Virus record (IMG/VR): IMGVR_UViG_3300037483_001148
Location: 36,046-100,045 of that record
Origin: a virus
DNA: 64,000 nucleotides
Reading direction: 5' to 3' (one strand)
Position 1 is the stretch's first letter; each line of letters opens with the position of its first letter. The position numbers were made by a program, and so were the translations under genes. Shown here in pieces: positions 8,948 to 19,940 of this stretch. The notes below the pieces were generated by a model. It did not search any database. It worked only from the letters and a program-made list of their open reading frames with translations, and was not told the DNA's origin.

Positions 8948-9093
8948 TGAAGATAATCTGGTTTATGCCACTATTGGTTGTATTTTTGTCTGTTGCGTGC
9001 GACTGTGAGCCAGGTGATCCGGCTCGCAACCCATGCCAAATGAGTCAAATTGAAATCCTGCAAGTAAAATGGAGCTACTATGTTAGCCACTAA
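8947..9093 (+). CDS. small putative lipoprotein (48 aa, not in ORF track)
   Basis: TGATG coupling; MKIIWFMPLLVVFLSVA-CDCEPGD... Confidence 0.5.
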   Translation: MKIIWFMPLLVVFLSVACDCEPGDPARNPCQMSQIEILQVKWSYYVSH

Positions 9094-11092
9094 AAAACTG
9101 AATAATATTAAAAAAGAAGTCGGGCGGGTTAATCACATCTGGATTTTTGACCGATCCGGCTCAATGAGTTGGGTAATCAAACAATTAGTTGAGGATATGA
9201 TTGAATTACAACGTGTTCTCAAGCCGGATGATACCCTTAGTGTTGGCTGGTTTTCCTCTGAAGGGGAATATAACTGGCTCATTAAAGGGTATGTAGTTGG
9301 TTCAATTGAGGGTGGGGTTGAAAAGCTGCTCAGAGCCAATAACACTTCATTGAACTTAACCTGCTTCAGTGAAATCCTGATTTCTACCAGCCAAGTGCTT
9401 CAGAATTTGAGCATTTTTAGCCCCCAGTTCTCCCTCATTTTCTTCACTGATGGTTATCCGGTAGTATCGAATTATCAACAAGAGGAAAATAACATCTTCA
9501 GAGCTATTTTTGACGTTGCCCCCGACATTGATAATTCTTTGCTCGTAGGGTATGGTGACTACTACAACAAACCTCTTTTAGTTCGGATGGCTCAGGCGTT
9601 TAATGGCGCTTTGATTCACTCATCTGACCTGGATTCCTACAAAGTCCAAAGCCGGACTTTTTTGGAAAATTTGACCCCCATGCAGCCAGTAGATTTGGAT
9701 GTTGACACCGAGCGCATCTATTTTACCCAAAAAGGAATGGTGACAGCTATGCCTGTTTTGGAAAGACACACATTTGTGCCAACCGGGGTGAAAGAAGTTT
9801 TTTATGAAACTGATCGAATCATGGTGCAATACGAGCCACCTTATGAGGCATGGTGTGCTGTAGCTGTCATTGCTCTTCAAGAAGCCGATGTTGAAAAAGC
9901 TATTGAAATGCTAGCAAAAACCGGCGATGTGTATTTGCTGGATTTAGCCAACAATGCCTTCACCAATCAAGACTTCGGCCAAGCGGAAAACGCCATTCGG
10001 GATGCTATTCAATATCCAGCCAAGCGTTTCCTAAGCGGTAAGGATTACAACTACCTCCCGGCTGATGACGCATTTTGTGTCTTGTATTTGCTGGAACTAC
10101 TTCAGCAAGACAAAAACGCCATGTTCTATCCCTACGACCCAATGTTCCATTACAAACGCACCGGGAAGAAGTCTAAGCAGCTTCCCGGCTATCCTCAATT
10201 TATCAAATCGGATGCTAATCCGGCCATTCCCCTGGAAGATTTGGTTTGGCATCAAACCAGAGCAAACATATCAATTCGCTGCCGGATTAACGGAGTAGTT
10301 GATATTGGCAAAAATGAGGTAGACTTGCCACCACACTTCTACACTCACATTTATCGCAACTATACTATCGTTAAAGATGGTAACTTGAATGTGACAATGC
10401 TGCCGGTATCTACTTCCAAACGAGTATTTGATGTTTTGAAGAAACACAACCTGGTCATGGGGAAATGGGAAAGCGGAAAAATCTACGCTGTTGACCTAGC
10501 CAAATTGCCGATCATTAACAAGGTCATCGCCAGAGGGTATAAGTCAGCAACGGCCCTATGTGAACGAGTCATGAGTGAAACTGAGGTCGAAGCGGGTTTG
10601 AAAGTCTACCGCCATTTTCTGAAGGAATTGCTACCGGAGAAACAAATTGAAGGGTATAAGCCAGAGCAGCAAATTTTCCTGAAAGAAAGAGGCATTACTT
10701 ACAACGGCTACAACCCGCCCACTGAGGATGAACCGGCTCAGGATTACTACTATGCCAAAGAGTTCAAGGTTGAAGTAGAAGGAATGAAATCATTGCCTTC
10801 GGTAAAAGAAGTTATGGAGAAAATGGAAGACGGTAAGAAACTCACAGGTCGCCAAGATTTACTCAGACCATTCATTGCCGATTTTCAGCTTCATGCAGAC
10901 GATAAGATTCCCTGGCTACAAGACCACATCGAATCAGCCAAAACGGAACTGTGGAATTTGCGGCGATACATTCAAAGAGCCAAGTTTGCCGTTATTGTCG
11001 GTAAGACATGGTTTGATGAACTAAAAGAACGGGAATGTGTTTTTGAGGGATGTTCATTATCATTCAAGGATAACACGAAAGTGGAATACTAA
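9080..11092 (+). CDS. vWA (MIDAS) domain protein with large C-terminal region
   Basis: IFDRSGSM (DxSxS), TCFSE, FFTDGYP. Confidence 0.85.
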   Translation: MLATKKLNNIKKEVGRVNHIWIFDRSGSMSWVIKQLVEDMIELQRVLKPDDTLSVGWFSSEGEYNWLIKGYVVGSIEGGVEKLLRANNTSLNLTCFSEILISTSQVLQNLSIFSPQFSLIFFTDGYPVVSNYQQEENNIFRAIFDVAPDIDNSLLVGYGDYYNKPLLVRMAQAFNGALIHSSDLDSYKVQSRTFLENLTPMQPVDLDVDTERIYFTQKGMVTAMPVLERHTFVPTGVKEVFYETDRIMVQYEPPYEAWCAVAVIALQEADVEKAIEMLAKTGDVYLLDLANNAFTNQDFGQAENAIRDAIQYPAKRFLSGKDYNYLPADDAFCVLYLLELLQQDKNAMFYPYDPMFHYKRTGKKSKQLPGYPQFIKSDANPAIPLEDLVWHQTRANISIRCRINGVVDIGKNEVDLPPHFYTHIYRNYTIVKDGNLNVTMLPVSTSKRVFDVLKKHNLVMGKWESGKIYAVDLAKLPIINKVIARGYKSATALCERVMSETEVEAGLKVYRHFLKELLPEKQIEGYKPEQQIFLKERGITYNGYNPPTEDEPAQDYYYAKEFKVEVEGMKSLPSVKEVMEKMEDGKKLTGRQDLLRPFIADFQLHADDKIPWLQDHIESAKTELWNLRRYIQRAKFAVIVGKTWFDELKERECVFEGCSLSFKDNTKVEY

Positions 11093-11156: not shown

Positions 11157-11561
11157 ATGTCTGACTGTGTGTACTACGCTCTAAACCAACATCTTAGATG
11201 GCTTAGGGTAAGTCCGGTTAGGGTATTTGGGGTATATAACCAGGTACGCTTTCTATCCGGCCATAAATGGAACGATGATACTTTTGCCGGGGTTGTACCT
11301 TACATGGCCTTCCAGCTTGCGAAAATTTATGATGACCTGACAGCCATTGTGGAGCGTAACCCTGACTTTGACCTGTTGGCTCAAGCTAACACAGCAGAGA
11401 AAAAGTTCATGGGGGACATGGGGACAAGCCCCATTACCCCTGGCCCTGGTGTTTATTGTGGTTATTTTTCAGCCCATGCTATCTTCTGGTCACATGAACA
11501 AATGCCGATTGGGGATACATGGGTATTATCAATTAAATTCAGGAGGTTAAAAAATGACTGA
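11157..11561 (+). CDS. hypothetical protein, possible minimal Cys-His (papain-like) peptidase
   Basis: N-terminal DCVYYAL helix and distal SAHAIFW strand; AGGAG RBS; overlaps the Ubl-like gene. Confidence 0.5.
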   Translation: MSDCVYYALNQHLRWLRVSPVRVFGVYNQVRFLSGHKWNDDTFAGVVPYMAFQLAKIYDDLTAIVERNPDFDLLAQANTAEKKFMGDMGTSPITPGPGVYCGYFSAHAIFWSHEQMPIGDTWVLSIKFRRLKND

Positions 11562-11895
11562 AGTATTGACGGTTCAAATTAGAGTTTTGTTTCCAAATAA
11601 CGCTACCCATCACGCTGGTGAATCGGTAGACGTTCCGGCCCATGAGGTTCTTCGAGAAAATGACGACCTGGCCTCAATGTCGGATGCTACCCTGGTTCAC
11701 CGAGTAGAGGCGTATCTGGATTTGCCGGAAGGGACGATGCACGGCATGATCGTGCAACGGCCTGAAGCCGGGAACATTCTCATTACTGCCAAGACCCGAT
11801 TCGGCAATTTTAGTTGTGGGTACTGCGGAGCTACTTTTAGAAACTACCTGGACCTTCGCAATCACTTGACAGTGAATCCCACCCACAGCATCTAA
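11554..11895 (+). CDS. putative ubiquitin-like (beta-grasp) protein fused to a C-terminal C2H2 zinc finger
   Basis: beta-beta-alpha-beta-beta pattern ending GNILITAKTRFG (G84), then C-x2-C-x3-F-x5-L-x2-H-x6-H; AGGAGG RBS; E1-like gene nearby. Confidence 0.65.
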   Translation: MTEVLTVQIRVLFPNNATHHAGESVDVPAHEVLRENDDLASMSDATLVHRVEAYLDLPEGTMHGMIVQRPEAGNILITAKTRFGNFSCGYCGATFRNYLDLRNHLTVNPTHSI

Positions 11896-11917
11896 TGTTC
11901 CAGTTTTCCAGAACATC

Positions 11918-11946
11918 TTGACAAAATGGGTGGTTCGTAGTACACT
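11918..11946 (+). promoter_or_regulatory. sigma70 promoter for the ncRNA/tRNA cassette
   Basis: TTGACA-17 nt-TACACT; predicted +1 near 11953 coincides with the first RNA stem. Confidence 0.8.
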
Positions 11947-11952
11947 AAGACT

Positions 11953-12020
11953 ATCGTTCAACGGCAAGGGCGAACAAACACCAACAGCAAAAGTTTTTTA
12001 GCTCTTACTGCACAGAACGT
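11953..12020 (+). ncRNA. Y-RNA-like element A (minimal, no tRNA domain)
   Basis: CGTTC-AA-CGG-C-AAGGGC-GAACAAAC...GCTCTT-A-CTG-CACA-GAACG; same stem recurs in three downstream elements; upstream of Ro-like gene. Confidence 0.65.
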
Positions 12021-12038
12021 TACAGGATGGCGCGTTGA

Positions 12039-12118
12039 AAGGTAGGATTGACCGACTACCACAAATGCTGGATAAGAATGGTCGTTAAACATTAAACCCC
12101 AGTCACATCCGAAACCTT
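12039..12118 (+). ncRNA. unidentified structured RNA inside the cassette
   Basis: AAGGT/ACCTT, GGAT/ATCC, TGAC/GTCA, CGACTA/TGGTCG pairings. Confidence 0.35.
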
Positions 12119-12126
12119 AAAAATCA

Positions 12127-12268
12127 TTAACCGTTCGACTCTGGCAGCTTACAAACAGTATGGGTTCGATTCCCATATTCCAAGCTTCTTGGAATTAGCC
12201 TAATGGTAGGGCAACAGTCTTTCAAAAACTGTCTAAAAAATGCAGCTTTCAGTACATGGAACGGTTGA
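12127..12268 (+). ncRNA. Y-RNA-like element B (YrlA-like) with circularly permuted tRNA domain
   Basis: Outer stem TTAACCGTTC/GAACGGTTGA; order is T-arm ATGGG-TTCGATT-CCCAT, closed acceptor ATTCCAAG-CTT-CTTGGAAT, D-arm GCCT-AATGGTA-GGGC, anticodon arm ACAGT-CTTTCAAAA-ACTGT. Confidence 0.8.
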
Positions 12269-12275
12269 TACATAA

Positions 12276-12347
12276 TGTGGGGTAGAGCAGAGGTAGCTCG
12301 TCACGCTCATAACGTGAAGGTCGTGAGTTCGATTCTCACCCCCGCTA
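12276..12347 (+). tRNA. tRNA-Met(CAT), initiator-like
   Basis: TGTGGGG/CCCCGCT with 1:72 mismatch, GAGC/GCTC D-stem, TCACG-CTCATAA-CGTGA, GTGAG-TTCGATT-CTCAC; CCA not encoded. Confidence 0.9.
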
Positions 12348-12351
12348 CTAT

Positions 12352-12490
12352 GGCCTCCTAGCTAAAAATGCAATTGAAAGTAACCTAATCACAGAACGAG
12401 TTTCTCGTTCAACCTGGGGTACTTACAAACAATGGACAAAGCGTCAGTCTTAGGAACTGAAGAATCCTGGTTCGATTCCAGGGGAGGCCA
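12352..12490 (+). ncRNA. tRNA(TAG anticodon)-like RNA with a permuted Y-like module inserted in the D-arm (element D)
   Basis: GGCCTCC/GGAGGCC-A acceptor, TCAGT-CTTAGGA-ACTGA, CCTGG-TTCGATT-CCAGG; about 66-nt insert containing CACAGAACGAG-TTT-CTCGTTCAAC. Confidence 0.8.
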
Positions 12491-12491
12491 C

Positions 12492-12622
12492 TAATTCGTT
12501 CAACTCTAATGGCGAACAAACTTATGGTGCAGAGGTAGCACAACAAATTCATACTTTGTCGGTCGCAAGTTCGATTCTTGCTAAGTTTACCAAAAAACCG
12601 CCAATAGAACACAGAACGATTA
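12492..12622 (+). ncRNA. Y-RNA-like element E enclosing an intact tRNA
   Basis: TCGTTC-AAC-TCTA-A-TGGCG-AAC [tRNA] AAAAAC-CGCCA-A-TAGA-ACACA-GAACGA. Confidence 0.75.
12518..12592 (+). tRNA. tRNA with CAT anticodon (Met or Ile2), CCA encoded, nested in element E
   Basis: AAACTTA/TAAGTTT-A-CCA, GTGC-AGAGGTA-GCAC, ACAAA-TTCATAC-TTTGT, GCAAG-TTCGATT-CTTGC. Confidence 0.85.
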
Positions 12623-12627
12623 AAAAG

Positions 12628-12666
12628 AAAACAAAGAGTGGCCGCATTTAGCGGTCATTTTTGTTT
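12628..12666 (+). terminator. intrinsic terminator closing the RNA cassette
   Basis: AAACAAAGAGTGGCCGC-ATTTA-GCGGTCATTTTTGTTT. Confidence 0.8.
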
Positions 12667-12690
12667 AATATACATAAAAGAGGTTAAACG

Positions 12691-14169
12691 ATGGAACAAA
12701 ATACTGCCAGAAAGTTATTGTTCGACAATCTCCTAAAACTCCCCCACCGAGACTATAATGAATTAGTCCCCCACTTCTCCAAAGCAATGCTTGATGACCC
12801 CGATTTTACTTCCAAAGCAATGGTTTATCTGTTTACAACTTCAGTGATTCGAGATCAGCAAGACACGGCTGTTATTGCTCTCTTATCGTCACCAGCCCAT
12901 TTTGGCCTTCGAGATGCAGGTAAGGCTTTGTTCGGCCTGGACTTCTACAGAACTGCCAACACGACTGGTATGAAGGCTATGCCCCCATTTCGTCTGTTTC
13001 GCATCTTGCATTACCTTATGGGGTTTGGCCGGTACAAAGGTCAAAAAGCAATTAGTCCCCGACTGACCAGAACGTTGATGAATGACTACCTCACTTTCCT
13101 GGAATCTCATCCTGAGCGTTTTGATCGAGTCATTGCTCTCAATCGGCAAGAGGTTCATGATGCTTATGTCACCTTACATCGCAAACCTTCAGATCGAGTT
13201 AAGGCCATTGTGTTTGAAGACAATCCCCCCGAAGATTCCATTTTCTTTGCTATCAAGCAAGTTGGCCGGGAAGCTGACCCAATGGAAAAGGCAAGATTGG
13301 CAATGAAATTCAAGTTGCCTTATACCGTAGCTTCGGGCTTACTGCCCAAGAAAAACGCGGCAGCGCATGTGGCTCTCATTGATTTGATGTCGCCCACCGA
13401 AGCGGCCAATTCTATCGCCTGGGTAGAAAACTCAGGCGTGCTTGAAATCCCCGAAGTCAAAGCGGCTTTTGCCGCAAAGGTGGCAATGGCTAAGGACGTT
13501 ACCAGCCTGAAGCATCGAAAAAGTAGTGCATCCAAAAATGAAGCTGTTCAGCAAGCCGTATCTCAGGCCAGAGAAAAAGCTACGAGCGAAGCCAAGAAAA
13601 TCACCAAACGGGTTTTGCTCAACATTGATCGTTCCGGCTCAATGCGGCCAGCAATTGAAGTAGCTAAGGAATTTGCCGCTTTTTTAGGGGCAAGGCTGGA
13701 ATCACCTGATTTGCTCTATATGGTGGCTTTTAACGACATGGCTACTCGAATTAAGCCCCGTTCTCTGGCCTTGAGCGATGTTGAAGCAGCTTGCATGCTT
13801 ATAAAGGATAACGGGGCAACGTGTTTGGGAGTTGGGATTCAGACCGCTTTAGCAGATGGATTTGAACCGGAGGTTATTGTAACCCTCAGTGATTTTGAGG
13901 AAAACCGTAGACCCTCGTATTTGGAAATGGCCTCTAAGGTTGATTGCCAGCATGTGTTCATTGGCTTGGGCAACTACAAAGGGTATGCCCAGGCTTATAC
14001 TAATTCAGTGGAAAGCAAAGGGCATGCGGTATCGTTCTTTCCCTACATGGCTTCAGGACGTAATGACTATTACCTGTTTGAGCAAATAGCGGCTATTTTG
14101 GCTGGTCAGGGGAAAAAGAGTTTGGTCCAGGCTATTTTGGATATTGAACTGCCGTATGTGGTGAAGTAA
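12691..14169 (+). CDS. divergent Ro60/TROVE-like helical domain plus C-terminal vWA protein
   Basis: About 300-aa helical N-region (LPHR, DPDF..KAMVYL...IRD, LPYTVA, MSPTE) then LNIDRSGSM, GAT, LSDFEEN MIDAS; Ro60 size and layout; adjacent Y-like RNAs. Confidence 0.75.
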   Translation: MEQNTARKLLFDNLLKLPHRDYNELVPHFSKAMLDDPDFTSKAMVYLFTTSVIRDQQDTAVIALLSSPAHFGLRDAGKALFGLDFYRTANTTGMKAMPPFRLFRILHYLMGFGRYKGQKAISPRLTRTLMNDYLTFLESHPERFDRVIALNRQEVHDAYVTLHRKPSDRVKAIVFEDNPPEDSIFFAIKQVGREADPMEKARLAMKFKLPYTVASGLLPKKNAAAHVALIDLMSPTEAANSIAWVENSGVLEIPEVKAAFAAKVAMAKDVTSLKHRKSSASKNEAVQQAVSQAREKATSEAKKITKRVLLNIDRSGSMRPAIEVAKEFAAFLGARLESPDLLYMVAFNDMATRIKPRSLALSDVEAACMLIKDNGATCLGVGIQTALADGFEPEVIVTLSDFEENRRPSYLEMASKVDCQHVFIGLGNYKGYAQAYTNSVESKGHAVSFFPYMASGRNDYYLFEQIAAILAGQGKKSLVQAILDIELPYVVK

Positions 14170-14170
14170 A

Positions 14171-14341
14171 ATGGATACCTTCATAAACTTGACGGTTCTG
14201 ATTGCGGCAGTTTGGCTTATTCAACAGGGTTTGGTAATGAACACTTCAAACTTTCAATCGGCTCTGTATTTTAAGGTGATTCCATTTTCTATAGGCTTGG
14301 CCTGTCTATGGTCAGCCGGAAAACTGTTTGGGTGGATATGA
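14171..14341 (+). CDS. small membrane protein (56 aa, not in ORF track)
   Basis: MDTFINLTVLIAAVWLIQQGLV...PFSIGLACLWSAGKLFGWI; ATGA overlap with next gene. Confidence 0.55.
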   Translation: MDTFINLTVLIAAVWLIQQGLVMNTSNFQSALYFKVIPFSIGLACLWSAGKLFGWI

Positions 14342-14643
14342 AACTATTTTGGATTTTTTCTTGCATTGCAATGAGAATTAGTGGTGAACATGTTGAAGCA
14401 AATCATTTTCCATTTATAACAGAAGGAAAAGATAAAGCAGAGGCTACAACCTATGCTTTGGGGAAAACCTTAATGCAGTATAATCCATCCGACGATTGGG
14501 TTAGCCATCAAGTGACTCCATTAGAGATTTCCCCCAAGTGGTTAGTCGATGCGCTAACGGATGAGCAACGGCTAGAACTGTTTTCCAATTATTGCTTCCA
14601 TTGTGGTTCAAAAAATCTTCCCTGTCAGTGTCAAACGAGGTAA
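14338..14643 (+). CDS. hypothetical protein with C-terminal Cys cluster
   Basis: CFHCGSKNLPCQC; ATGA coupling. Confidence 0.6.
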   Translation: MKLFWIFSCIAMRISGEHVEANHFPFITEGKDKAEATTYALGKTLMQYNPSDDWVSHQVTPLEISPKWLVDALTDEQRLELFSNYCFHCGSKNLPCQCQTR

Positions 14644-14645
14644 AA

Positions 14646-14789
14646 ATGTATCTAAAATTAGGTCCGTTTGCAATAAACGTTAAAATGTATGAACTGATAA
14701 TTGTGTGTATGTCCTTAGTTCTTCTCTGTGCTGGCTTAACCGGCATAGTTAGAGCAATAGTACCTCTATTCATAAAATGTCTTTATTAA
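14646..14789 (+). CDS. small membrane protein
   Basis: GAGGT RBS; one hydrophobic helix. Confidence 0.5.
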   Translation: MYLKLGPFAINVKMYELIIVCMSLVLLCAGLTGIVRAIVPLFIKCLY

Positions 14790-15649
14790 ACGTTCTGAAC
14801 AAGCTAAGTGAACATATCCCCCAACCATTCTTAGCCCCTATCCCTCAGTCTGAAATAGTCTCCTGCTTTACTTTGCAGGAGACTATTCCTTATTGGTTTC
14901 ATCTAACCAACCCTCAACCTGGCTGGTGGTGGTTAAAACCGCATAGAAATGAAGCTGTCTTAAACCGGGAAGCTGAACCTCACGAATATCTATCTTACCT
15001 CTCACAGTTACCTCGCTGGATCGTCATTGTGATAGAGCAAAACCAGCATGGGGTAGTAGTAGTTCCTTACAATGCCTCAGATGCGACTCAACGCGGCTGG
15101 CTTAACTCTGAGCCTCGTTATGTCTATCTCACCAGAAAAGTCCAGCTTCAGACTTTTTCTGTTGTCTGTGTTAGAAACATGGCCGGAACGCTTCTATTTG
15201 ATGATTTCTATCCTTTAGATATAGAAGTGCAAAAAAAGTTGACAGATGGGGTAAACGAACAAAGGCCAGTAGTTGTGCCAGGCCATTTTAGTGTGGTATG
15301 GCAAATCGCTTTCCGGCGAATGGCCGAAGAAAGAGATCGTCAACTAAAAGAAGAAATCGAAAGAAAACGAAAGGAAGCGCAACTAACCGAAGAAGGCCGG
15401 ATTAGATACCGACTGGAATATGTTGGGGCTGAATTAGTTGAATATAAAAAACGAGGGGAACGATTTGATGTCACTTATGAGTACAATGGAGCAAGATTCA
15501 CCATGAATGTTAGACCCGACATGAGGATTGAGAGTGCCGGGATTTGTCTTTCGGGTGAAGATTCTAACCATGATCTATCATCCATTGTACTTACTATGGA
15601 ACGAGCCAGAGAGTTGCACAGACCGGGGATTGAGAGGTATCACCTATGA
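14777..15649 (+). CDS. conserved-looking protein with putative E2-like (Ubl-conjugating) C-terminal Cys motif
   Basis: C-terminal strands then IESAGICLSGED (C257), similar to the G-x-ICL active-site segment of UBC folds; coiled-coil linker; next to ThiF gene. Confidence 0.5.
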   Translation: MSLLNVLNKLSEHIPQPFLAPIPQSEIVSCFTLQETIPYWFHLTNPQPGWWWLKPHRNEAVLNREAEPHEYLSYLSQLPRWIVIVIEQNQHGVVVVPYNASDATQRGWLNSEPRYVYLTRKVQLQTFSVVCVRNMAGTLLFDDFYPLDIEVQKKLTDGVNEQRPVVVPGHFSVVWQIAFRRMAEERDRQLKEEIERKRKEAQLTEEGRIRYRLEYVGAELVEYKKRGERFDVTYEYNGARFTMNVRPDMRIESAGICLSGEDSNHDLSSIVLTMERARELHRPGIERYHL

Positions 15650-16059
15650 CTGTACCTGAATGGGCAATTGATTACATCCAATATTGGCGGGATATTTTAC
15701 TTCTACAAGAATGGCAATTTTTTACCAGCCTGACCGATGAGCCATTAGGCGATAGCCAAAATTTGGCCGGAGTGAATGTTCAAGCTGATTATGTCACGGC
15801 TCGAATTGAAATAAGGGATGACATTCCGGTTAATATAGAAGAAGCTGATGCACTCGACCAGTACAGATGGAAAAAGACGATCATCCATGAATTGGTGCAT
15901 GTAAGGCTATATCGAATTACCTGTTTTGTGCAGGACAACATATTTCCCGAACTAGGCCAGTCACTCTATGGGATAATTAGCAGGCAATTTAAGCAAATGG
16001 TTGAGCCAACAGTCGAAATTTTAACTGAAATCCTATACAGTCTGAGTGAGGCAAAATGA
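15646..16059 (+). CDS. zincin-like metallopeptidase (HExxH)
   Basis: TIIHELVHV with a distal Glu helix (VEPTVEIL). Confidence 0.7.
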   Translation: MTVPEWAIDYIQYWRDILLLQEWQFFTSLTDEPLGDSQNLAGVNVQADYVTARIEIRDDIPVNIEEADALDQYRWKKTIIHELVHVRLYRITCFVQDNIFPELGQSLYGIISRQFKQMVEPTVEILTEILYSLSEAK

Positions 16060-16628
16060 TTATTTTATGCGGTTGTGGCTCAGTTGGATCAAAGATTGCT
16101 CTTGAGCTATCAAGTTTGGATAATGAGTGGATACTTATTGACGATGATGAAATTGAGCCTGAGAATGTTCCTGTCTCAGCATATCTCCATGACCAAATTG
16201 GTCAAACTAAAGTAATAGCTCTGGCTGAATTGCTATGGCGTAAAAATAGGGTAATCGCCAAACCCTACTCAAAAACACTCAGCCGGAATGTTCACCAAAT
16301 TTTTCCAGATGGATTGGTAATTGAAAGTTTTGACAATCCGGCAGCAAGGTTGCTTACCATCAACCCATTTAAGCATGCAGACCATCCGGTAATTCACATC
16401 GGCGTAGATTTAGGTGAAGTAGGCTCAGTAGTTTGGGATGTTCATTACAGGTTGCCGGAGATTGATTTCAACCGAGGTAACAACCCCGTTTGCACGAGGC
16501 AAGCCGGGGCTAATATCATTAGGTTTACTGTTACCATAGCGGTTTATGCCATAAGTCAATACTTAAGCAATGTAGTTAAAAACAGTTATTTTATCAATAA
16601 TGGAATGATAGTGAGGATGAACAAATGA
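16056..16628 (+). CDS. ThiF/MoeB/E1-family adenylyltransferase
   Basis: IILCGCGSVGS Rossmann loop, LIDDDEIEPEN, IGQTKVIAL, ESFDN..AR; candidate catalytic Cys146 (NPVC). Confidence 0.85.
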   Translation: MIILCGCGSVGSKIALELSSLDNEWILIDDDEIEPENVPVSAYLHDQIGQTKVIALAELLWRKNRVIAKPYSKTLSRNVHQIFPDGLVIESFDNPAARLLTINPFKHADHPVIHIGVDLGEVGSVVWDVHYRLPEIDFNRGNNPVCTRQAGANIIRFTVTIAVYAISQYLSNVVKNSYFINNGMIVRMNK

Positions 16629-16993
16629 ACCTGTTAAAAGAAACCAAAGCTGTCTGTCCAAAATGTGATAGTGAGAATATAGGGTATCTAACACAAATAC
16701 CAGAAATTGATCGGAAATTCTCACAAAAGTGCAACAAATGTGGGAAAGGCTTTAATGAAGCAGCTTATTACCCCCCGGCTGTTGATTTATCCGGCTGTAT
16801 CACTGTAGGTGATATGATTGAAGCACTCAAACAGTTTGATCCGAACTTGCCCATTCTACACGCATATGAGGGTTGGGTTAGAGAAAATGAGTACATGTCT
16901 ATAGATAATGTTGAGCTAACTAATCTATGGCATCAAAATACTGGTGGTGATCCTGAGTTTTACGGCCAAGCCGAGATTGTGCTGATAAAATGA
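16625..16993 (+). CDS. zinc-ribbon protein
   Basis: CPKC...CNKC. Confidence 0.7.
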   Translation: MNLLKETKAVCPKCDSENIGYLTQIPEIDRKFSQKCNKCGKGFNEAAYYPPAVDLSGCITVGDMIEALKQFDPNLPILHAYEGWVRENEYMSIDNVELTNLWHQNTGGDPEFYGQAEIVLIK

Positions 16994-18981: not shown

Positions 18982-19185
18982 ATGCAGACTGATCCATTGG
19001 CTACCAAACCGCTAAGACCTGACTGGTGTTTGAAAATGGCAGAGAAACTTTGGGGGAAGTTCGATATAGTCAATTTTTCCAGAGATGATCTTTATGTCAG
19101 TATTGAGGAAGTAGCTGATTTCATTTGGGAAACTCATCAGGAATTTTTACGCCAAGTCGCTCTTCGTGTGGGGGGCGTGGATTGA
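18982..19185 (+). CDS. hypothetical protein
   Basis: AGGAGG RBS. Confidence 0.7.
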   Translation: MQTDPLATKPLRPDWCLKMAEKLWGKFDIVNFSRDDLYVSIEEVADFIWETHQEFLRQVALRVGGVD

Positions 19186-19199
19186 AACGATTCCCGCCG

Positions 19200-19330
19200 A
19201 GGGTATAGAGTAGTACCCCTGAATGGTCTAGTACCAGTGTCTCGAAAGAGGCTTGCTTCCATATCGAATGGATATACTGTCTTAAGTGACAGGCTACTCA
19301 AGCCAGCCTAAAGGGGTTGAAGGGCTGGCT
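19200..19330 (+). ncRNA. candidate multi-hairpin ncRNA
   Basis: Six consecutive hairpins including GTCTC-GAAA-GAGGC. Confidence 0.45.
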
Positions 19331-19788: not shown

Positions 19789-19794
19789 TTTTAT

Positions 19795-19867
19795 TTTCTC
19801 ATAGCTCAATGGTTAGAGCGCAATCCTGATAAGATTGAGGCCAATGGTTCAAATCCATTTGAGGAAA
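19795..19867 (+). tRNA. tRNA-Ile(GAT)
   Basis: TTTCTCA/TGAGGAA, GCTC/GAGC, CAATC-CTGATAA-GATTG, AATGG-TTCAAAT-CCATT; no encoded CCA. Confidence 0.9.
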
Positions 19868-19940
19868 TTAGCACCCAAAGCGTCTGGCTGAAAACAAGCA
19901 GCGCGTTGGAAGTAAGCCGGGTTAAGTGAGTAAGTGTGAA

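What the first reader, a model, noticed from the sequence alone, without database searches (positions are those of the whole stretch)
11157..16628. Phage Ro/TROVE-Y RNA locus coupled to an apparent ubiquitin-like conjugation pathway
Seen in 5.5 kb on one strand: Cys-His protein, beta-grasp-like protein ending RFG plus zinc finger, Y-like/tRNA cassette, Ro60-sized helical+vWA protein, GICL-Cys protein, HExxH peptidase and ThiF/E1. Established: Ro60/Rsr rings bind Y RNAs (bacterial YrlA are tRNA mimics), and ThiF/E1 enzymes adenylate the C-terminal Gly of beta-grasp proteins. Inference: Ubl, E1, E2-like enzyme and peptidase form a conjugation (or sulfur-relay) system in which the Ro-Y RNP acts as an RNA-programmed adaptor. 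Its tRNA mimics could bait tRNA-binding host proteins such as anticodon nucleases, synthetases or RNA repair enzymes for tagging. I recall similar vWA/ThiF clusters in some bacteria but cannot verify this or whether they have been characterised.
Basis: partly seen in the sequence, partly recalled or inferred. Interest (0 to 1): 0.95.

Follow-up and report, generated by a model that had tools for sequence, protein, structure and literature searches.

The report
Phage Ro60 particle with ubiquitin-like module
An uncultured sediment phage carries a conserved gene set that joins a Ro60-type RNA-binding ring protein and tRNA-shaped small RNAs to a small ubiquitin-like protein, its activating enzyme and a new cysteine protein; I found no paper that describes this link between RNA handling and protein tagging.

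Summary
At 11157-16628 on the + strand lie seven elements:
- a Cys-His protein;
- a small protein whose Gly84 aligns with the C-terminal Gly of over 60 homologues, here followed by a 29-aa C2H2-like finger;
- four Y-RNA-like stem handles, three carrying tRNA or tRNA-like bodies;
- a protein with the full Ro60 fold and an intact vWA metal site;
- a 290-aa protein with an invariant Cys;
- an HExxH protein;
- a ThiF/E1-like enzyme.

Ubl, Ro-like, Cys-protein and E1 keep this order in well over 100 phage, metagenome and bacterial loci. One locus encodes a Ubl-Ro fusion. A complex model puts the Ubl tail in the E1 nucleotide pocket (score 0.62, best control 0.00).

- The HExxH protein is an orphan, not part of the system.
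- The Cys protein has an OB fold, and its E2 fold is unproven.
- This window belongs to a clade that lacks the JAB peptidase of the main clade. It has the Cys-His protein instead, and the two never co-occur.
- The clade's E1 lacks the N-terminal arginine helix.

Conjugation, its target and the "RNA bait" idea remain untested. Earlier follow-ups of this scan found the same system on other DNA. I found no paper describing it.

The parts
11157..11561 (+). Cys-His protein (134 aa), a candidate Ubl-trimming or deconjugating peptidase. Its stop overlaps the Ubl start by 8 nt.
   Evidence: Family of 11 loci, placed directly before the Ubl gene in most of them. Cys4 is near-invariant and His107-Ala108 invariant. 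It is found only in loci without JAB and only with the short E1. No Pfam or PDB relative. Peptidase activity is inferred.
11554..11805 (+). Ubiquitin-like core (residues 1-84), ending ...TRFG.
   Evidence: Aligns with 31 homologues from related loci. G84 falls on the near-invariant terminal Gly. The Ubl tail docks in the E1 pocket in a complex model. The ESM Atlas model of residues 1-84 resembles small bacterial proteins, with hints of Prok_Ub and Ufm1.
11806..11895 (+). 29-aa C-terminal tail with a C-x2-C-x12-H-x6-H zinc-finger pattern, plus the stop codon. It would have to be cut off to free Gly84.
   Evidence: Pfam zf-C2H2_4 E 6e-4 and zf-C2H2 E 1.5e-3, both below the curated cut-off. No other family member has this tail. 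Others have no tail, tails of 1-11 aa, or unrelated tails of 81-97 aa.
11918..11946 (+). Promoter-like site in front of the RNA cassette.
   Evidence: TTGACA-17-TACACT, 10 of 12 matches. Promoter-like sites in the region are not above the number expected from shuffles, so this is weak evidence.
11955..12019 (+). RNA unit 1: stem handle alone, with no tRNA body.
   Evidence: Handle motif and 3' partner CACAGAACG. The fold gives the two-stem handle, z -2.3.
12130..12266 (+). RNA unit 2: handle enclosing a rearranged tRNA-like body, with T-arm, closed stem, D-arm and a hairpin with a 9-nt loop.
   Evidence: Fold: -42 kcal/mol, z -3.8. Weak YrlA hit at 12159-12212 (22.5 bits, cut-off 69) and weak tRNA hit at 12189-12258.
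12276..12348 (+). tRNA(CAU), free-standing.
   Evidence: ARAGORN and Rfam tRNA, 61.9 bits.
12352..12490 (+). RNA unit 3: tRNA-like acceptor, anticodon and T arms, with the handle inserted in place of the D-arm.
   Evidence: Fold: -45.7 kcal/mol, z -3.4. Rfam tRNA 26.8 bits, just under the cut-off of 29.
12494..12620 (+). RNA unit 4: complete tRNA(CAU) (12518-12592) enclosed by the handle.
   Evidence: Rfam tRNA 65.8 bits. The fold pairs leader and trailer, z -2.5. The same design is seen in L002.
12634..12662 (+). Terminator-like hairpin with a T run, at the end of the RNA cassette and just before the Ro-like gene.
12691..14169 (+). Ro60/TROVE-fold protein with a C-terminal vWA domain (492 aa).
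   Evidence: AF2 model, pLDDT 80. Foldseek hits over about 500 columns: Ro60 1yvp E 2e-10, Rsr 2nvo TM 0.58, Thermus phage Ro60 9l5y. MIDAS residues D313, S315, S317, T377 and D401 are invariant.
14777..15649 (+). Cys protein (290 aa): two small beta-barrels (the second an OB fold), a long helix, and a C-terminal alpha/beta domain with invariant Cys257. Candidate E2-like acceptor.
15646..16059 (+). HExxH protein (137 aa). It is translationally coupled to its neighbours here but is not a conserved part of the system.
   Evidence: One homologue in 5.8 billion proteins and none in the related loci. In other loci this slot holds JAB or unrelated ORFs.
16056..16628 (+). ThiF/E1-like adenylating enzyme, short form (190 aa).
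   Evidence: Pfam ThiF 29.9 bits against a cut-off of 28.1. NCBIfam ThiF PRK08644 E 5e-14. PADLOC E1-E2 models. G6, G8, G11, D29, K52, D93, N94, R98 and C146 are invariant in 32 sequences.

Best explanation
The window carries a member of a widespread phage and bacterial cassette that I could not find described. The cassette couples a Ro60-like ring protein and its tRNA-shaped Y-like RNAs to a minimal ubiquitin-like pathway.

Proposed steps:
1. The 113-aa precursor is cut after Gly84. In this clade the likely enzyme is the Cys-His protein encoded just upstream; most relatives use a JAB peptidase instead.
2. The ThiF-like E1 binds the Ubl and adenylates its C-terminal Gly.
3. The activated Ubl passes to a cysteine, either E1 Cys146 or Cys257 of the 290-aa protein.
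4. The 290-aa protein has OB-type barrels. These are proposed to hold it on RNA, most simply on the tRNA-like part of the Y-like RNAs whose stem handle is bound by the Ro-like ring. This parallels the way bacterial Y RNA tethers Ro60 to the S1/KH domains of PNPase.
5. The Ubl is then delivered to an unknown target at or near the Ro particle.

Shown here: the folds or families of Ro and E1, the Ubl family with its terminal Gly, the invariant cysteines, the gene linkage, and a model-supported E1-Ubl interface.
Inferred: the cleavage, the thioester transfer, the RNA tethering and the target.
For: Ro fold and metal site
- The Ro fold matches over the whole length, and the MIDAS metal site is intact.

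E1
- Pfam ThiF above the cut-off, plus NCBIfam and PADLOC hits.
- The Rossmann loop, Lys52, Asp93-Asn94, Arg98 and Cys146 are invariant.

Ubl family
- In viral and metagenome loci, 23 of 35 distinct sequences end exactly at the Gly, 6 have 1-2 extra residues and 3 have long tails.
- In genome loci, 39 of 42 end ...RPxAx[FY]G.

E1-Ubl complex model
- ipSAE 0.62 (three runs: 0.64, 0.62, 0.62) against a best control of 0.00.
- That mark was reached by 58 of 80 solved complexes and 2 of 110 mismatched pairs. These counts hold only roughly, because my own alignments were used.
- The runs share at least 92% of contacts, and the partner's pLDDT is at least 83.
- Ubl residues 78-84 touch E1 residues 6, 8-11 and 91-95.
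- The pass may partly reflect likeness to solved ThiF-ThiS, MoeB-MoaD and E1-Ub complexes.

Cys protein
- Cys257 is invariant in 110 sequences inside the SAGICL motif.
- The model has pLDDT 94.9, with the order helix, four strands, Cys loop, helix.

Linkage
- The Ro gene lies directly upstream of the Cys-protein gene in 38 of 42 loci with enough flank.
- E1 lies downstream in 26 of 30 such loci, and the Ubl is present in 27 of 33.
- 36 of 80 bacterial-genome loci hold all four genes.
- The median Ro-to-Cys-protein gap is 146-187 nt, and many pairs overlap.
- L160 encodes a Ubl-Ro fusion.

Peptidase swap
- JAB is in 27 loci and Cys-His in 11, with none holding both. Cys-His occurs only with the short E1.

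RNAs
- The window has four handles with differing but still pairing inner stems.
- Handle-caged tRNAs also occur in L002, whose Ro is 36% identical.
- Same-strand tRNA genes lie beside the Ubl or Ro gene in 43 of 70 loci.
Against: - No match of the Cys protein's C-terminal domain to UBC/E2 by sequence. The fold searches were filled by the OB domain, so that domain was never tested on its own. Its helix-strands-helix order would also fit a dsRBD-like domain.
- There is no HPN motif.
- The Ubl has no sequence match to any Ubl family. Its beta-grasp fold rests on a moderate ESM Atlas model (pTM 0.51; TM 0.56/0.78 to unnamed proteins, 0.38/0.50 to Ufm1).
- The E1 of this clade lacks the N-terminal helix with the arginine and the Arg of the NLxRQ motif. 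Canonical ThiF/MoeB enzymes have both, and the long clade keeps the arginine helix but has HNLxTQ in place of NLxRQ.
- The Rfam YrlA model is not matched (22.5 bits against 69).
- Some cyanobacterial genomes have the Cys protein, with or without E1, and no Ro nearby. The pair can therefore work without Ro.
- No RNA or protein data exist for this uncultured phage.
Confidence: 0.55

Rival explanations
1. Sulfur-carrier pathway. The E1 adenylates the Ubl so that it becomes a thiocarboxylate, as with ThiS, MoaD, TtuB and Urm1. The sulfur is then used to thiolate the phage's own tRNAs or tRNA-like RNAs. The OB/Cys protein would serve as the RNA-binding persulfide or transfer component, and Ro would hold the RNA.
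For: - The closest named E1 relatives are ThiS adenylyltransferases (NCBIfam PRK08644 E 5e-14, thiF_fam2 E 1.4e-11).
- The cassette sits among tRNA genes.
- The Cys protein has an RNA-type OB fold and a single invariant Cys.
- From my own knowledge: sulfur carriers can also be made as precursors trimmed by JAB peptidases (CysO/Mec, QbsE/QbsD), and TtuB acts both as a sulfur carrier and as a modifier.
Against: - None of the scans flagged a PP-loop thiouridine synthetase, a rhodanese domain or a cysteine desulfurase in the conserved cassette.
- The E1 has no rhodanese domain (190 aa).
- Long unrelated C-terminal tails and a Ubl-Ro fusion resemble ubiquitin-type precursors more than sulfur carriers.
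Confidence: 0.2
2. E2-less modifier system. The Ubl is activated and attached to targets by the E1 alone, as in archaeal SAMP/UbaA and Thermus TtuB/TtuC. The 290-aa Cys protein is not an enzyme of the cascade. It would be an RNA-binding partner or the main target of Ro or the Ubl.
For: - No UBC match of any kind.
- E1 Cys146 is invariant.
- JAB, E1 and Ubl make up the whole set in the known E2-less systems (own knowledge).
Against: - An invariant Cys in a strongly conserved motif across 110 diverse sequences points to chemistry rather than binding alone.
- The Cys protein is the most tightly linked neighbour of both Ro and E1.
Confidence: 0.15
3. Two independent modules that merely travel together: a Ro/Y-RNA RNA-quality-control unit and a separate Ubl unit, with no physical or functional coupling.
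For: - The Cys protein and E1 occur without Ro in some cyanobacterial genomes.
- Phage Ro60 with Y-like RNAs is known without any Ubl genes in Thermus phage phiLo (PMC12135203).
Against: - The gene order is the same in well over 100 loci from distant phages and four or more bacterial phyla.
- The Ro and Cys-protein genes often overlap.
- A Ubl-Ro fusion exists.
- The Ubl gene sits on the far side of Ro from E1, so the Ubl unit is wrapped around Ro rather than lying beside it.
Confidence: 0.07

Closest known systems
Ro60 (Rsr) with Y RNAs: Salmonella/Mycobacterium Rsr-YrlA, Deinococcus Rsr-Yrn1-PNPase, mycobacteriophage Ro, Thermus phage phiLo Ro60 with Yrl1/Yrl2 (PMC4201824, PMC12135203; PDB 1yvp, 2nvo, 9l5y)
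   Same: - HEAT-repeat ring plus vWA with a MIDAS site.
- Small RNAs encoded on the same strand just upstream.
- RNAs built from a stem plus a tRNA-like module.
- In Deinococcus the Y RNA tethers Ro to a protein with OB-type (S1) domains.
   Different: - No Pfam TROVE match by sequence, and only about 15% identity to solved Ro60s.
- The RNAs do not reach the Rfam YrlA score.
- Some of the RNAs are complete tRNAs caged in the stem.
- The partners are a Ubl, an E1 and a Cys protein rather than PNPase or RtcB.
Prokaryotic Ubl-E1(-JAB) systems without a classical E2: archaeal SAMP/UbaA/HvJAMM1, Thermus TtuB/TtuC, and the sulfur carriers ThiS-ThiF and MoaD-MoeB
   Same: - A small protein with a C-terminal Gly.
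- A single-domain ThiF-type E1 with an invariant Cys.
- A JAB peptidase in the main clade.
- A link to tRNA biology, as in TtuB and Urm1.
   Different: - The Ubl ends in [FY]G, not GG, and matches no known Ubl family.
- Ro60, the Cys/OB protein and the tRNA-like RNAs are extra obligate neighbours.
- In this window's clade JAB is replaced by a Cys-His protein, and the E1 lacks the N-terminal arginine helix.
Bacterial E1-E2-Ubl-peptidase operons used in phage defence: Bil, Bub, CBASS Cap2/Cap3, 6E/PRTRC cassettes (PMC10557695, PMC11601596, PMC10097602, PMC1779556)
   Same: - The same logic of Ubl, E1, a Cys-bearing second enzyme and a trimming peptidase in one operon.
- The E1 gives weak hits to PADLOC Cap2-type E1-E2 models.
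   Different: - Here the cassette is carried by phages as well as by bacteria.
- The second enzyme has no detectable UBC relationship and carries OB barrels.
- None of those systems includes Ro60 or small RNAs.
Nidhogg viruses of Asgard archaea (bioRxiv 10.1101/2021.07.29.454249)
   Same: A virus genome reported to encode both a Ro60 (TROVE + vWA) protein and ThiF/E1-like proteins.
   Different: - The paper lists the genes separately and proposes hijacking of the host's ubiquitin system.
- It describes no joint cassette, Ubl, Cys protein or RNAs.
- I did not examine those genomes.

Membership tests
Ro60/TROVE | Ring of HEAT-like helical repeats followed by a vWA domain | tested here: met
   Foldseek aligns about 470-526 columns with Ro60/Rsr structures: 1yvp E 2e-10, 9nen TM 0.58, 2nvo TM 0.58, phage 9l5y E 4e-7. 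The model has pLDDT 80.
Ro60/TROVE | MIDAS metal site in the vWA domain (DxSxS...T...D) | tested here: met
   D313, S315, S317, T377 and D401 are invariant in 9 homologues.
Ro60/TROVE | Sequence match to the Pfam TROVE domain (PF05731) | tested here: not met
   Only VWA_2 was found at E<=0.1. A profile search of PDB hits Ro60 through the vWA part only, E 3.6e-4.
Ro60/TROVE | Binds a Y RNA encoded nearby on the same strand | not testable with these tools
   Stem-handle RNAs lie 26-736 nt upstream on the same strand. Binding itself needs experiment.
YrlA-type bacterial Y RNA (Rfam RF02553) | Score at or above the Rfam gathering threshold | tested here: not met
   The best hit is 22.5 bits against a threshold of 69, at 12159-12212, and covers a T-arm only.
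YrlA-type bacterial Y RNA (Rfam RF02553) | Stem formed by the 5' and 3' ends, plus a tRNA-like module | tested here: met
   Units 2-4 fold this way, z -2.5 to -3.8. L002 has the same design. The GNCGAA motif of PMC4201824 is present only partly, as GGCGAAC in units 1 and 4.
E1-like (ThiF/MoeB/HesA) superfamily | Pfam ThiF match and a GxGxxG nucleotide loop | tested here: met
   PF00899 at 29.9 bits against a cut-off of 28.1. G6, G8 and G11 are invariant.
E1-like (ThiF/MoeB/HesA) superfamily | ATP/Mg residues: conserved Lys, the Asp of the DxxDN motif, and the following Arg | tested here: met
   K52, D93-N94 and R98 are invariant in 32 sequences. Their equivalence to MoeB K86, D130 and R135 is from my own knowledge.
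E1-like (ThiF/MoeB/HesA) superfamily | N-terminal helix with the arginine finger, and the Arg of NLxRQ | tested here: not met
   The window protein starts at the Rossmann strand and reads ENV..SAY. The long clade has HE..YRG and HNLxTQ.
E1-like (ThiF/MoeB/HesA) superfamily | Binds the C-terminal tail of a beta-grasp protein in the adenylation pocket | tested here: met
   This is a model only. ipSAE is 0.62 against a best control of 0.00. The runs share at least 92% of contacts, and the partner's pLDDT is at least 83. Ubl residues 78-84 lie against E1 residues 6, 8-11 and 91-95. The pass may owe something to solved E1-Ubl complexes.
Ubiquitin-like modifiers / sulfur carriers (beta-grasp) | C-terminal Gly, either free or exposed by trimming | tested here: met
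   G84 aligns with the last residue of most homologues.
Ubiquitin-like modifiers / sulfur carriers (beta-grasp) | Beta-grasp fold | tested here: inconclusive
   The ESM Atlas model (pTM 0.51) has TM 0.56/0.78 to unnamed small proteins, 0.42/0.34 to a cluster that is 17% Prok_Ub, and 0.38/0.50 to Ufm1.
Ubiquitin-like modifiers / sulfur carriers (beta-grasp) | Sequence match to a known Ubl family (ubiquitin, ThiS, MoaD, Prok_Ub, Urm1...) | tested here: not met
   None of 32 members matches such a family at E<=1. A PDB profile search gives only weak L23 hits.
E2/UBC | Catalytic Cys in the loop after a four-stranded sheet and before a helix | tested here: met
   Cys257 is invariant. It lies between strand 250-253 and helix 267-279 of a model with pLDDT 94.9.
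E2/UBC | UBC fold by structure comparison | tested here: inconclusive
   All four fold searches were filled by the OB domain at 78-149. The C-terminal domain was never searched alone.
E2/UBC | Sequence match to UQ_con or the Prok-E2 families; HPN motif | tested here: not met
   No Pfam hit for 110 members at E<=0.01, nor for 10 isolated C-terminal domains at E<=10. No HPN is visible in the C-terminal sequences.
JAB/MPN+ peptidase | HxH...S..D motif protein within the cassette | tested here: not met
   An HMM built from the JAB genes of related loci finds none in the window's 64 kb, nor in any Cys-His locus.
Papain-like cysteine peptidase (for the Cys-His protein) | Conserved Cys, then His, in a recognisable fold or family | tested here: inconclusive
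   Cys4 and His107 are conserved. There is no Pfam, PDB or named relative, and the fold was not predicted.
Zincin metallopeptidase (for the HExxH protein) | HExxH plus a third ligand in a known family | tested here: inconclusive
   HELVH lies at residues 81-85. Only marginal hits were found: NCBIfam GtgA/GogA E 0.048 and phrog_1233 E 0.007.

The most novel reading that the evidence does not exclude
An RNA-tethered tagging machine. The stem handle of each Y-like RNA sits on the Ro ring. Its tRNA-shaped body holds the OB barrels of the Cys protein, or captures host tRNA-binding proteins. The E1-charged Ubl is then transferred through Cys257 onto whatever the particle has caught, whether a protein or possibly an RNA end. 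This would give phages and some bacteria RNA-programmed ubiquitin-like tagging.
Probability: 0.2. Interest if true: 0.95.

Novelty: new variant of a known kind. Interest (0 to 1): 0.82.

Why it matters
Ro60-Y RNA particles and ubiquitin-like conjugation are both well studied, but they have been treated as separate worlds: RNA surveillance and protein tagging. Here they are locked into one gene set, found in hundreds of protein clusters across large phages and several bacterial phyla.

If the pathway works as proposed, three things follow:
- Ro60's long-unexplained vWA/MIDAS domain and the tRNA mimicry of Y RNAs would gain a concrete partner.
- A new Ubl family, ending [FY]G, and a new Cys enzyme family with no detectable relationship to E2 would be defined.
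- A phage-borne Ubl system would be shown, where the known bacterial ones act against phages.

The window's clade also shows a natural swap of the trimming enzyme, JAB for a new Cys-His family. Its Ubl precursor carries a zinc finger, which recalls eukaryotic ubiquitin fusion precursors.

Tried and rejected
Tools that gave nothing or were unavailable
Synteny was taken from viral, metagenome and genome scans instead.
- blastn against GenBank phages matched only the tRNA.
- A single-protein scan of viral contigs with Ro found nothing.
Smaller alignments worked.

The E2 idea
- A Pfam scan of 110 family members, a Pfam scan of 10 isolated C-terminal domains at E<=10, a PDB profile search, Foldseek against PDB and BFVD, and two VIA-align searches gave no UBC match.
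- The structural lists were filled by the OB domain, so this is no evidence against a UBC fold.

The Ubl, Cys-His and HExxH proteins
- Ubl: no Pfam or PDB sequence relative.
- Cys-His protein: no Pfam, PDB or named relative.
- HExxH protein: rejected as a system part.
- The vWA670, p111 and Zn122 proteins have no homologues in related loci.

RNAs and expression
- The window's handle sequence is not found in other loci. Related phages use different handle sequences with the same design.
- No RNA holder was listed among the sequencing runs, and the only full holder is a sediment metagenome that may be the source.
- The promoter and terminator scan is not above its shuffled expectation.

Literature
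- Full-text searches for Ro60/TROVE together with ThiF, ubiquitin-like or JAB found no paper describing the link.
- The 2016 NAR review of RNA-repair systems by Burroughs and Aravind could not be opened, so I cannot exclude that it mentions the link.

Complex prediction
- Only one complex job was available, and it went to E1-Ubl. Ro with the Cys protein, and E1 with the Cys protein, were not tested.

Full report
**Where the window comes from.** The window is the last 64 kb of a 100,045-base IMG/VR virus record, estimated about 80% complete. It encodes a DNA polymerase, SbcCD-like nucleases and a major head protein, so it is a tailed phage. Near-identical DNA is held by one sediment metagenome, which may be its source. 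No close relative exists among deposited phages; only the tRNA matched.

**What is at 11157-16628.** All genes lie on the + strand, and several are chained by overlapping stop and start codons. The chained pairs are Cys-His/Ubl, Cys protein/HExxH, HExxH/E1, and E1/the next ORF. In order, the region holds:
- a 134-aa Cys-His protein;
- a 113-aa protein with a weak C2H2 zinc-finger match at residues 86-106;
- a 795-nt non-coding stretch;
- a 492-aa vWA protein;
- two small non-conserved ORFs;
- a 290-aa protein;
- a 137-aa HExxH protein;
- a 190-aa ThiF-family protein.

**The Ro-like protein.**
- By sequence only the vWA domain is recognised. A profile of nine homologues reaches Ro60 in the PDB through that domain alone (E 3.6e-4).
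- An AlphaFold model (pLDDT 80) matches Ro60 structures over its whole length. The hits include Xenopus Ro 1yvp (E 2e-10, 500 columns), human Ro60 9nen and Deinococcus Rsr 2nvo (TM 0.58 each), and the Ro60 of Thermus phage phiLo. Isolated vWA domains come only after these.
- The MIDAS residues are invariant.
- I therefore accept it as a Ro60-fold protein, very divergent in sequence.

**The RNAs.**
- ARAGORN and Rfam find two tRNA(CAU) genes. Below threshold there is a further tRNA-like element and a T-arm hit to YrlA.
- The motif CGTTCRAC-N9-12-ACAAAC occurs four times in this stretch and nowhere else in the window, with 0 expected. Each copy has a 3' partner, CACAGAACG or ACATGGAACG.
- Folding gives the same handle each time: an outer 5-9-bp stem, an internal loop, then an inner 9-10-bp stem. 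The sequence of the inner stem differs between units while pairing is kept.
- The handle stands alone in unit 1, closes a rearranged tRNA-like body in unit 2, replaces the D-arm of a tRNA-like body in unit 3, and cages a complete tRNA in unit 4.
- L002, a phage whose Ro is only 36% identical, has tRNAs caged by a handle of different sequence but the same design.
- This is the architecture of bacterial YrlA RNAs, a Ro-binding stem plus a tRNA-like module (PMC4201824), although the Rfam model is not matched.
- A promoter-like site and a terminator-like hairpin bracket the cassette. Such sites are not enriched in the region.

**The Ubl.**
- Related loci encode 65-95-aa proteins that align with residues 1-84 and share the C-terminal pattern ...RPxAx[FY]G.
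- Of 35 distinct sequences from viral and metagenome loci, 23 stop exactly at that Gly and six have one or two more residues. Two have tails of 7-11 residues, and one ends in Ala.
- The remaining three have long, mutually unrelated tails: 29 aa here, and 81 and 97 aa elsewhere.
- In bacterial genome loci, 39 of 42 stop at the Gly, and one is fused through that Gly to the N-terminus of Ro (L160).
- No known Ubl family is matched by sequence. The fold evidence is moderate.

**The E1.**
- The ThiF assignment is above Pfam's cut-off.
- In 32 family members the nucleotide loop, Lys52, Asp93-Asn94, Arg98 and Cys146 are invariant.
- There are two clades. The long clade has an N-terminal HE..YRG helix and HNLxTQ. 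The short clade, which includes the window, starts at the Rossmann strand and lacks both arginines.
- A complex model of E1 with Ubl(1-84), each supplied as an alignment, scored ipSAE 0.62 in the median of three runs against 0.00 for the best of three controls. The runs share at least 92% of contacts, and the partner's pLDDT is at least 83.
- That mark was reached by 58 of 80 solved complexes and 2 of 110 mismatched pairs, roughly, since my own alignments were used.
- Ubl residues 78-84 lie against E1 residues 6, 8-11 and 91-95, which form the adenylation pocket.
- Complexes of this kind have been solved, so the pass shows likeness to them and supports binding, but it does not prove binding.

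**The Cys protein.**
- An exhaustive HMMER search found 723 cluster representatives at E<=1e-3. In 110 of them Cys257 and Pro21 are invariant, and the motif SAGICLxGxD..NLSSIV is strongly kept.
- The model is excellent (pLDDT 94.9). It shows two small beta-barrels, a 34-residue helix, and then helix, four strands, the Cys loop and a helix.
- No Pfam or PDB sequence relative exists. The C-terminal domain was never tested alone by fold search, so "E2-like" remains a hypothesis.
- The domain's order of elements fits a minimal UBC or RWD domain, and also a dsRBD-like one.

**Linkage.**
- Ro lies directly upstream of the Cys protein in 38 of 42 loci with enough flank. E1 lies downstream in 26 of 30, and the Ubl is present in 27 of 33.
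- 36 of the 80 genome loci hold all four genes.
- The Ro-to-Cys-protein gap has a median of 146-187 nt and is often an overlap.
- Same-strand tRNA genes lie between the Ubl and Ro genes, or within 1.5 kb upstream of the Ubl gene, in 43 of 70 loci.
- Carriers include Chloroflexota, Planctomycetota, Cyanobacteria, Acidobacteriota and others. Many of these contigs carry 20 or more tRNA genes and may be phage DNA inside the assemblies.
- Some heterocystous cyanobacteria have the Cys protein, with or without E1, and no Ro nearby.

**Peptidases.**
- Following a lead from earlier notes of this scan, I looked at the ORFs between the Cys protein and E1.
- In the long-E1 clade this slot holds a JAB/MPN+ peptidase with an HTHP...S..D motif. 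In the short-E1 clade it holds unrelated ORFs, one of which is the window's HExxH protein.
- The HExxH protein has a single homologue in 5.8 billion proteins. It is therefore not a part of the system, even though it is translationally coupled here.
- The Cys-His family appears in 11 loci and JAB in 27, never together. The Cys-His family occurs only with the short E1 (11 of 15 such loci) and usually sits directly before the Ubl gene.
- All three long-tailed Ubl precursors belong to Cys-His loci.
- I read this as a non-homologous replacement of the trimming enzyme. The family has no known relatives, so the activity is inferred.
- The source's own gene call for this ORF is an 85-aa product starting at Met50 (P0178). 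The conserved N-terminal region, including Cys4, argues for the 134-aa form.

**How it most likely works, and how sure I am.**
- I consider it likely (about 0.75) that the E1 activates the trimmed Ubl at Gly84.
- What follows is open. The options are transfer to Cys257 and on to a target (my best reading), formation of a thiocarboxylate for RNA thiolation, or E1-only conjugation with the Cys protein as partner or target.
- Tethering of the Cys protein to the Ro particle through its OB barrels and the tRNA-like RNA bodies is an analogy with the Deinococcus Rsr-Y RNA-PNPase machine. It has not been tested.

**Novelty.**
- Phage Ro60 with Y-like RNAs is known (PMC4201824, PMC12135203, PMC7824862). 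Bacterial Ubl-E1-E2-peptidase operons are also known (PMC1779556, PMC10557695, PMC11601596).
- I found no paper that joins the two. The Nidhogg virus preprint lists a Ro60 and three E1-like genes without linking them.
- Earlier follow-up reports of this scan describe the same cassette on other genomes, so this is not its first sighting within the scan.
- New in this window is the JAB-less clade, with the Cys-His protein, the truncated E1 and the zinc-finger-tailed Ubl precursor.

Noticed in passing
window 9080-11092 (+): A 670-aa protein with an N-terminal vWA-like DRSGSM motif lies directly upstream of the cassette. It matches phrog_2426 (E 4e-126, unknown function). It has no homologue in the related loci, so it is probably unrelated to the system.
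   Followed up: partly
L160 5404-7206 (Chloroflexia MAG contig CAVPDG010000018.1): A single 600-aa ORF fuses the Ubl (residues 12-76, ending RPEAVFG) to a full Ro-like protein (residues 102-597). It is a natural Ubl-Ro precursor.
   Followed up: yes
L136, L141, L148, L151, L153, L154, L164, L167 (Fischerella, Calothrix, Pelatocladus genomes): Heterocystous cyanobacteria carry the Cys-protein gene without a Ro, Ubl or E1 gene detected within 8 kb. L132, L137, L145, L149 and L150 have it with E1 only.
   Followed up: partly
L002 7690-8262, L004 12595-13209, L018, L020, L027, L031, L033 and six genome loci: An HNH-motif protein of about 190-200 aa recurs next to the Ubl gene and the tRNA array in several clades. 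It is absent from the window.
   Followed up: partly
L002 8481-8555; L020 13409; L061 3142: tRNA genes beside the cassette include ones with stop-codon-reading anticodons: UUA in L002 (caged in a handle) and in L020, and UCA in L061.
   Followed up: no
L003 13192-13668 and 13704-14957: Just downstream of the cassette in this complete 172-kb phage lie two ORFs whose sequences look like a macro domain and a PARP-type ADP-ribosyltransferase. This is a reading by eye only.
   Followed up: no
window 16625-16993 (+): A 122-aa zinc-ribbon protein (weak ECs_2282 CxxC match, E 8.5e-4) overlaps the E1 stop codon. It has no homologue in the related loci.
   Followed up: partly
window 14308-14643 (+): A 111-aa ORF between Ro and the Cys protein ends in a Cys-rich CFHCGSKNLPCQC motif. 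It is not conserved elsewhere.
   Followed up: partly
C-termini of the Cys-protein family: Many members end in a conserved R[FY]D[LIM]xxxxW[LIV] peptide or in an acidic D/E-rich tail. Such a tail could be a ligand for the MIDAS site of the Ro vWA domain. The window's copy ends RPGIERYHL.
   Followed up: no
window 19794-19868 (+) and 19156-19245: A tRNA-Ile(GAU) gene lies 3 kb downstream.
   Followed up: no
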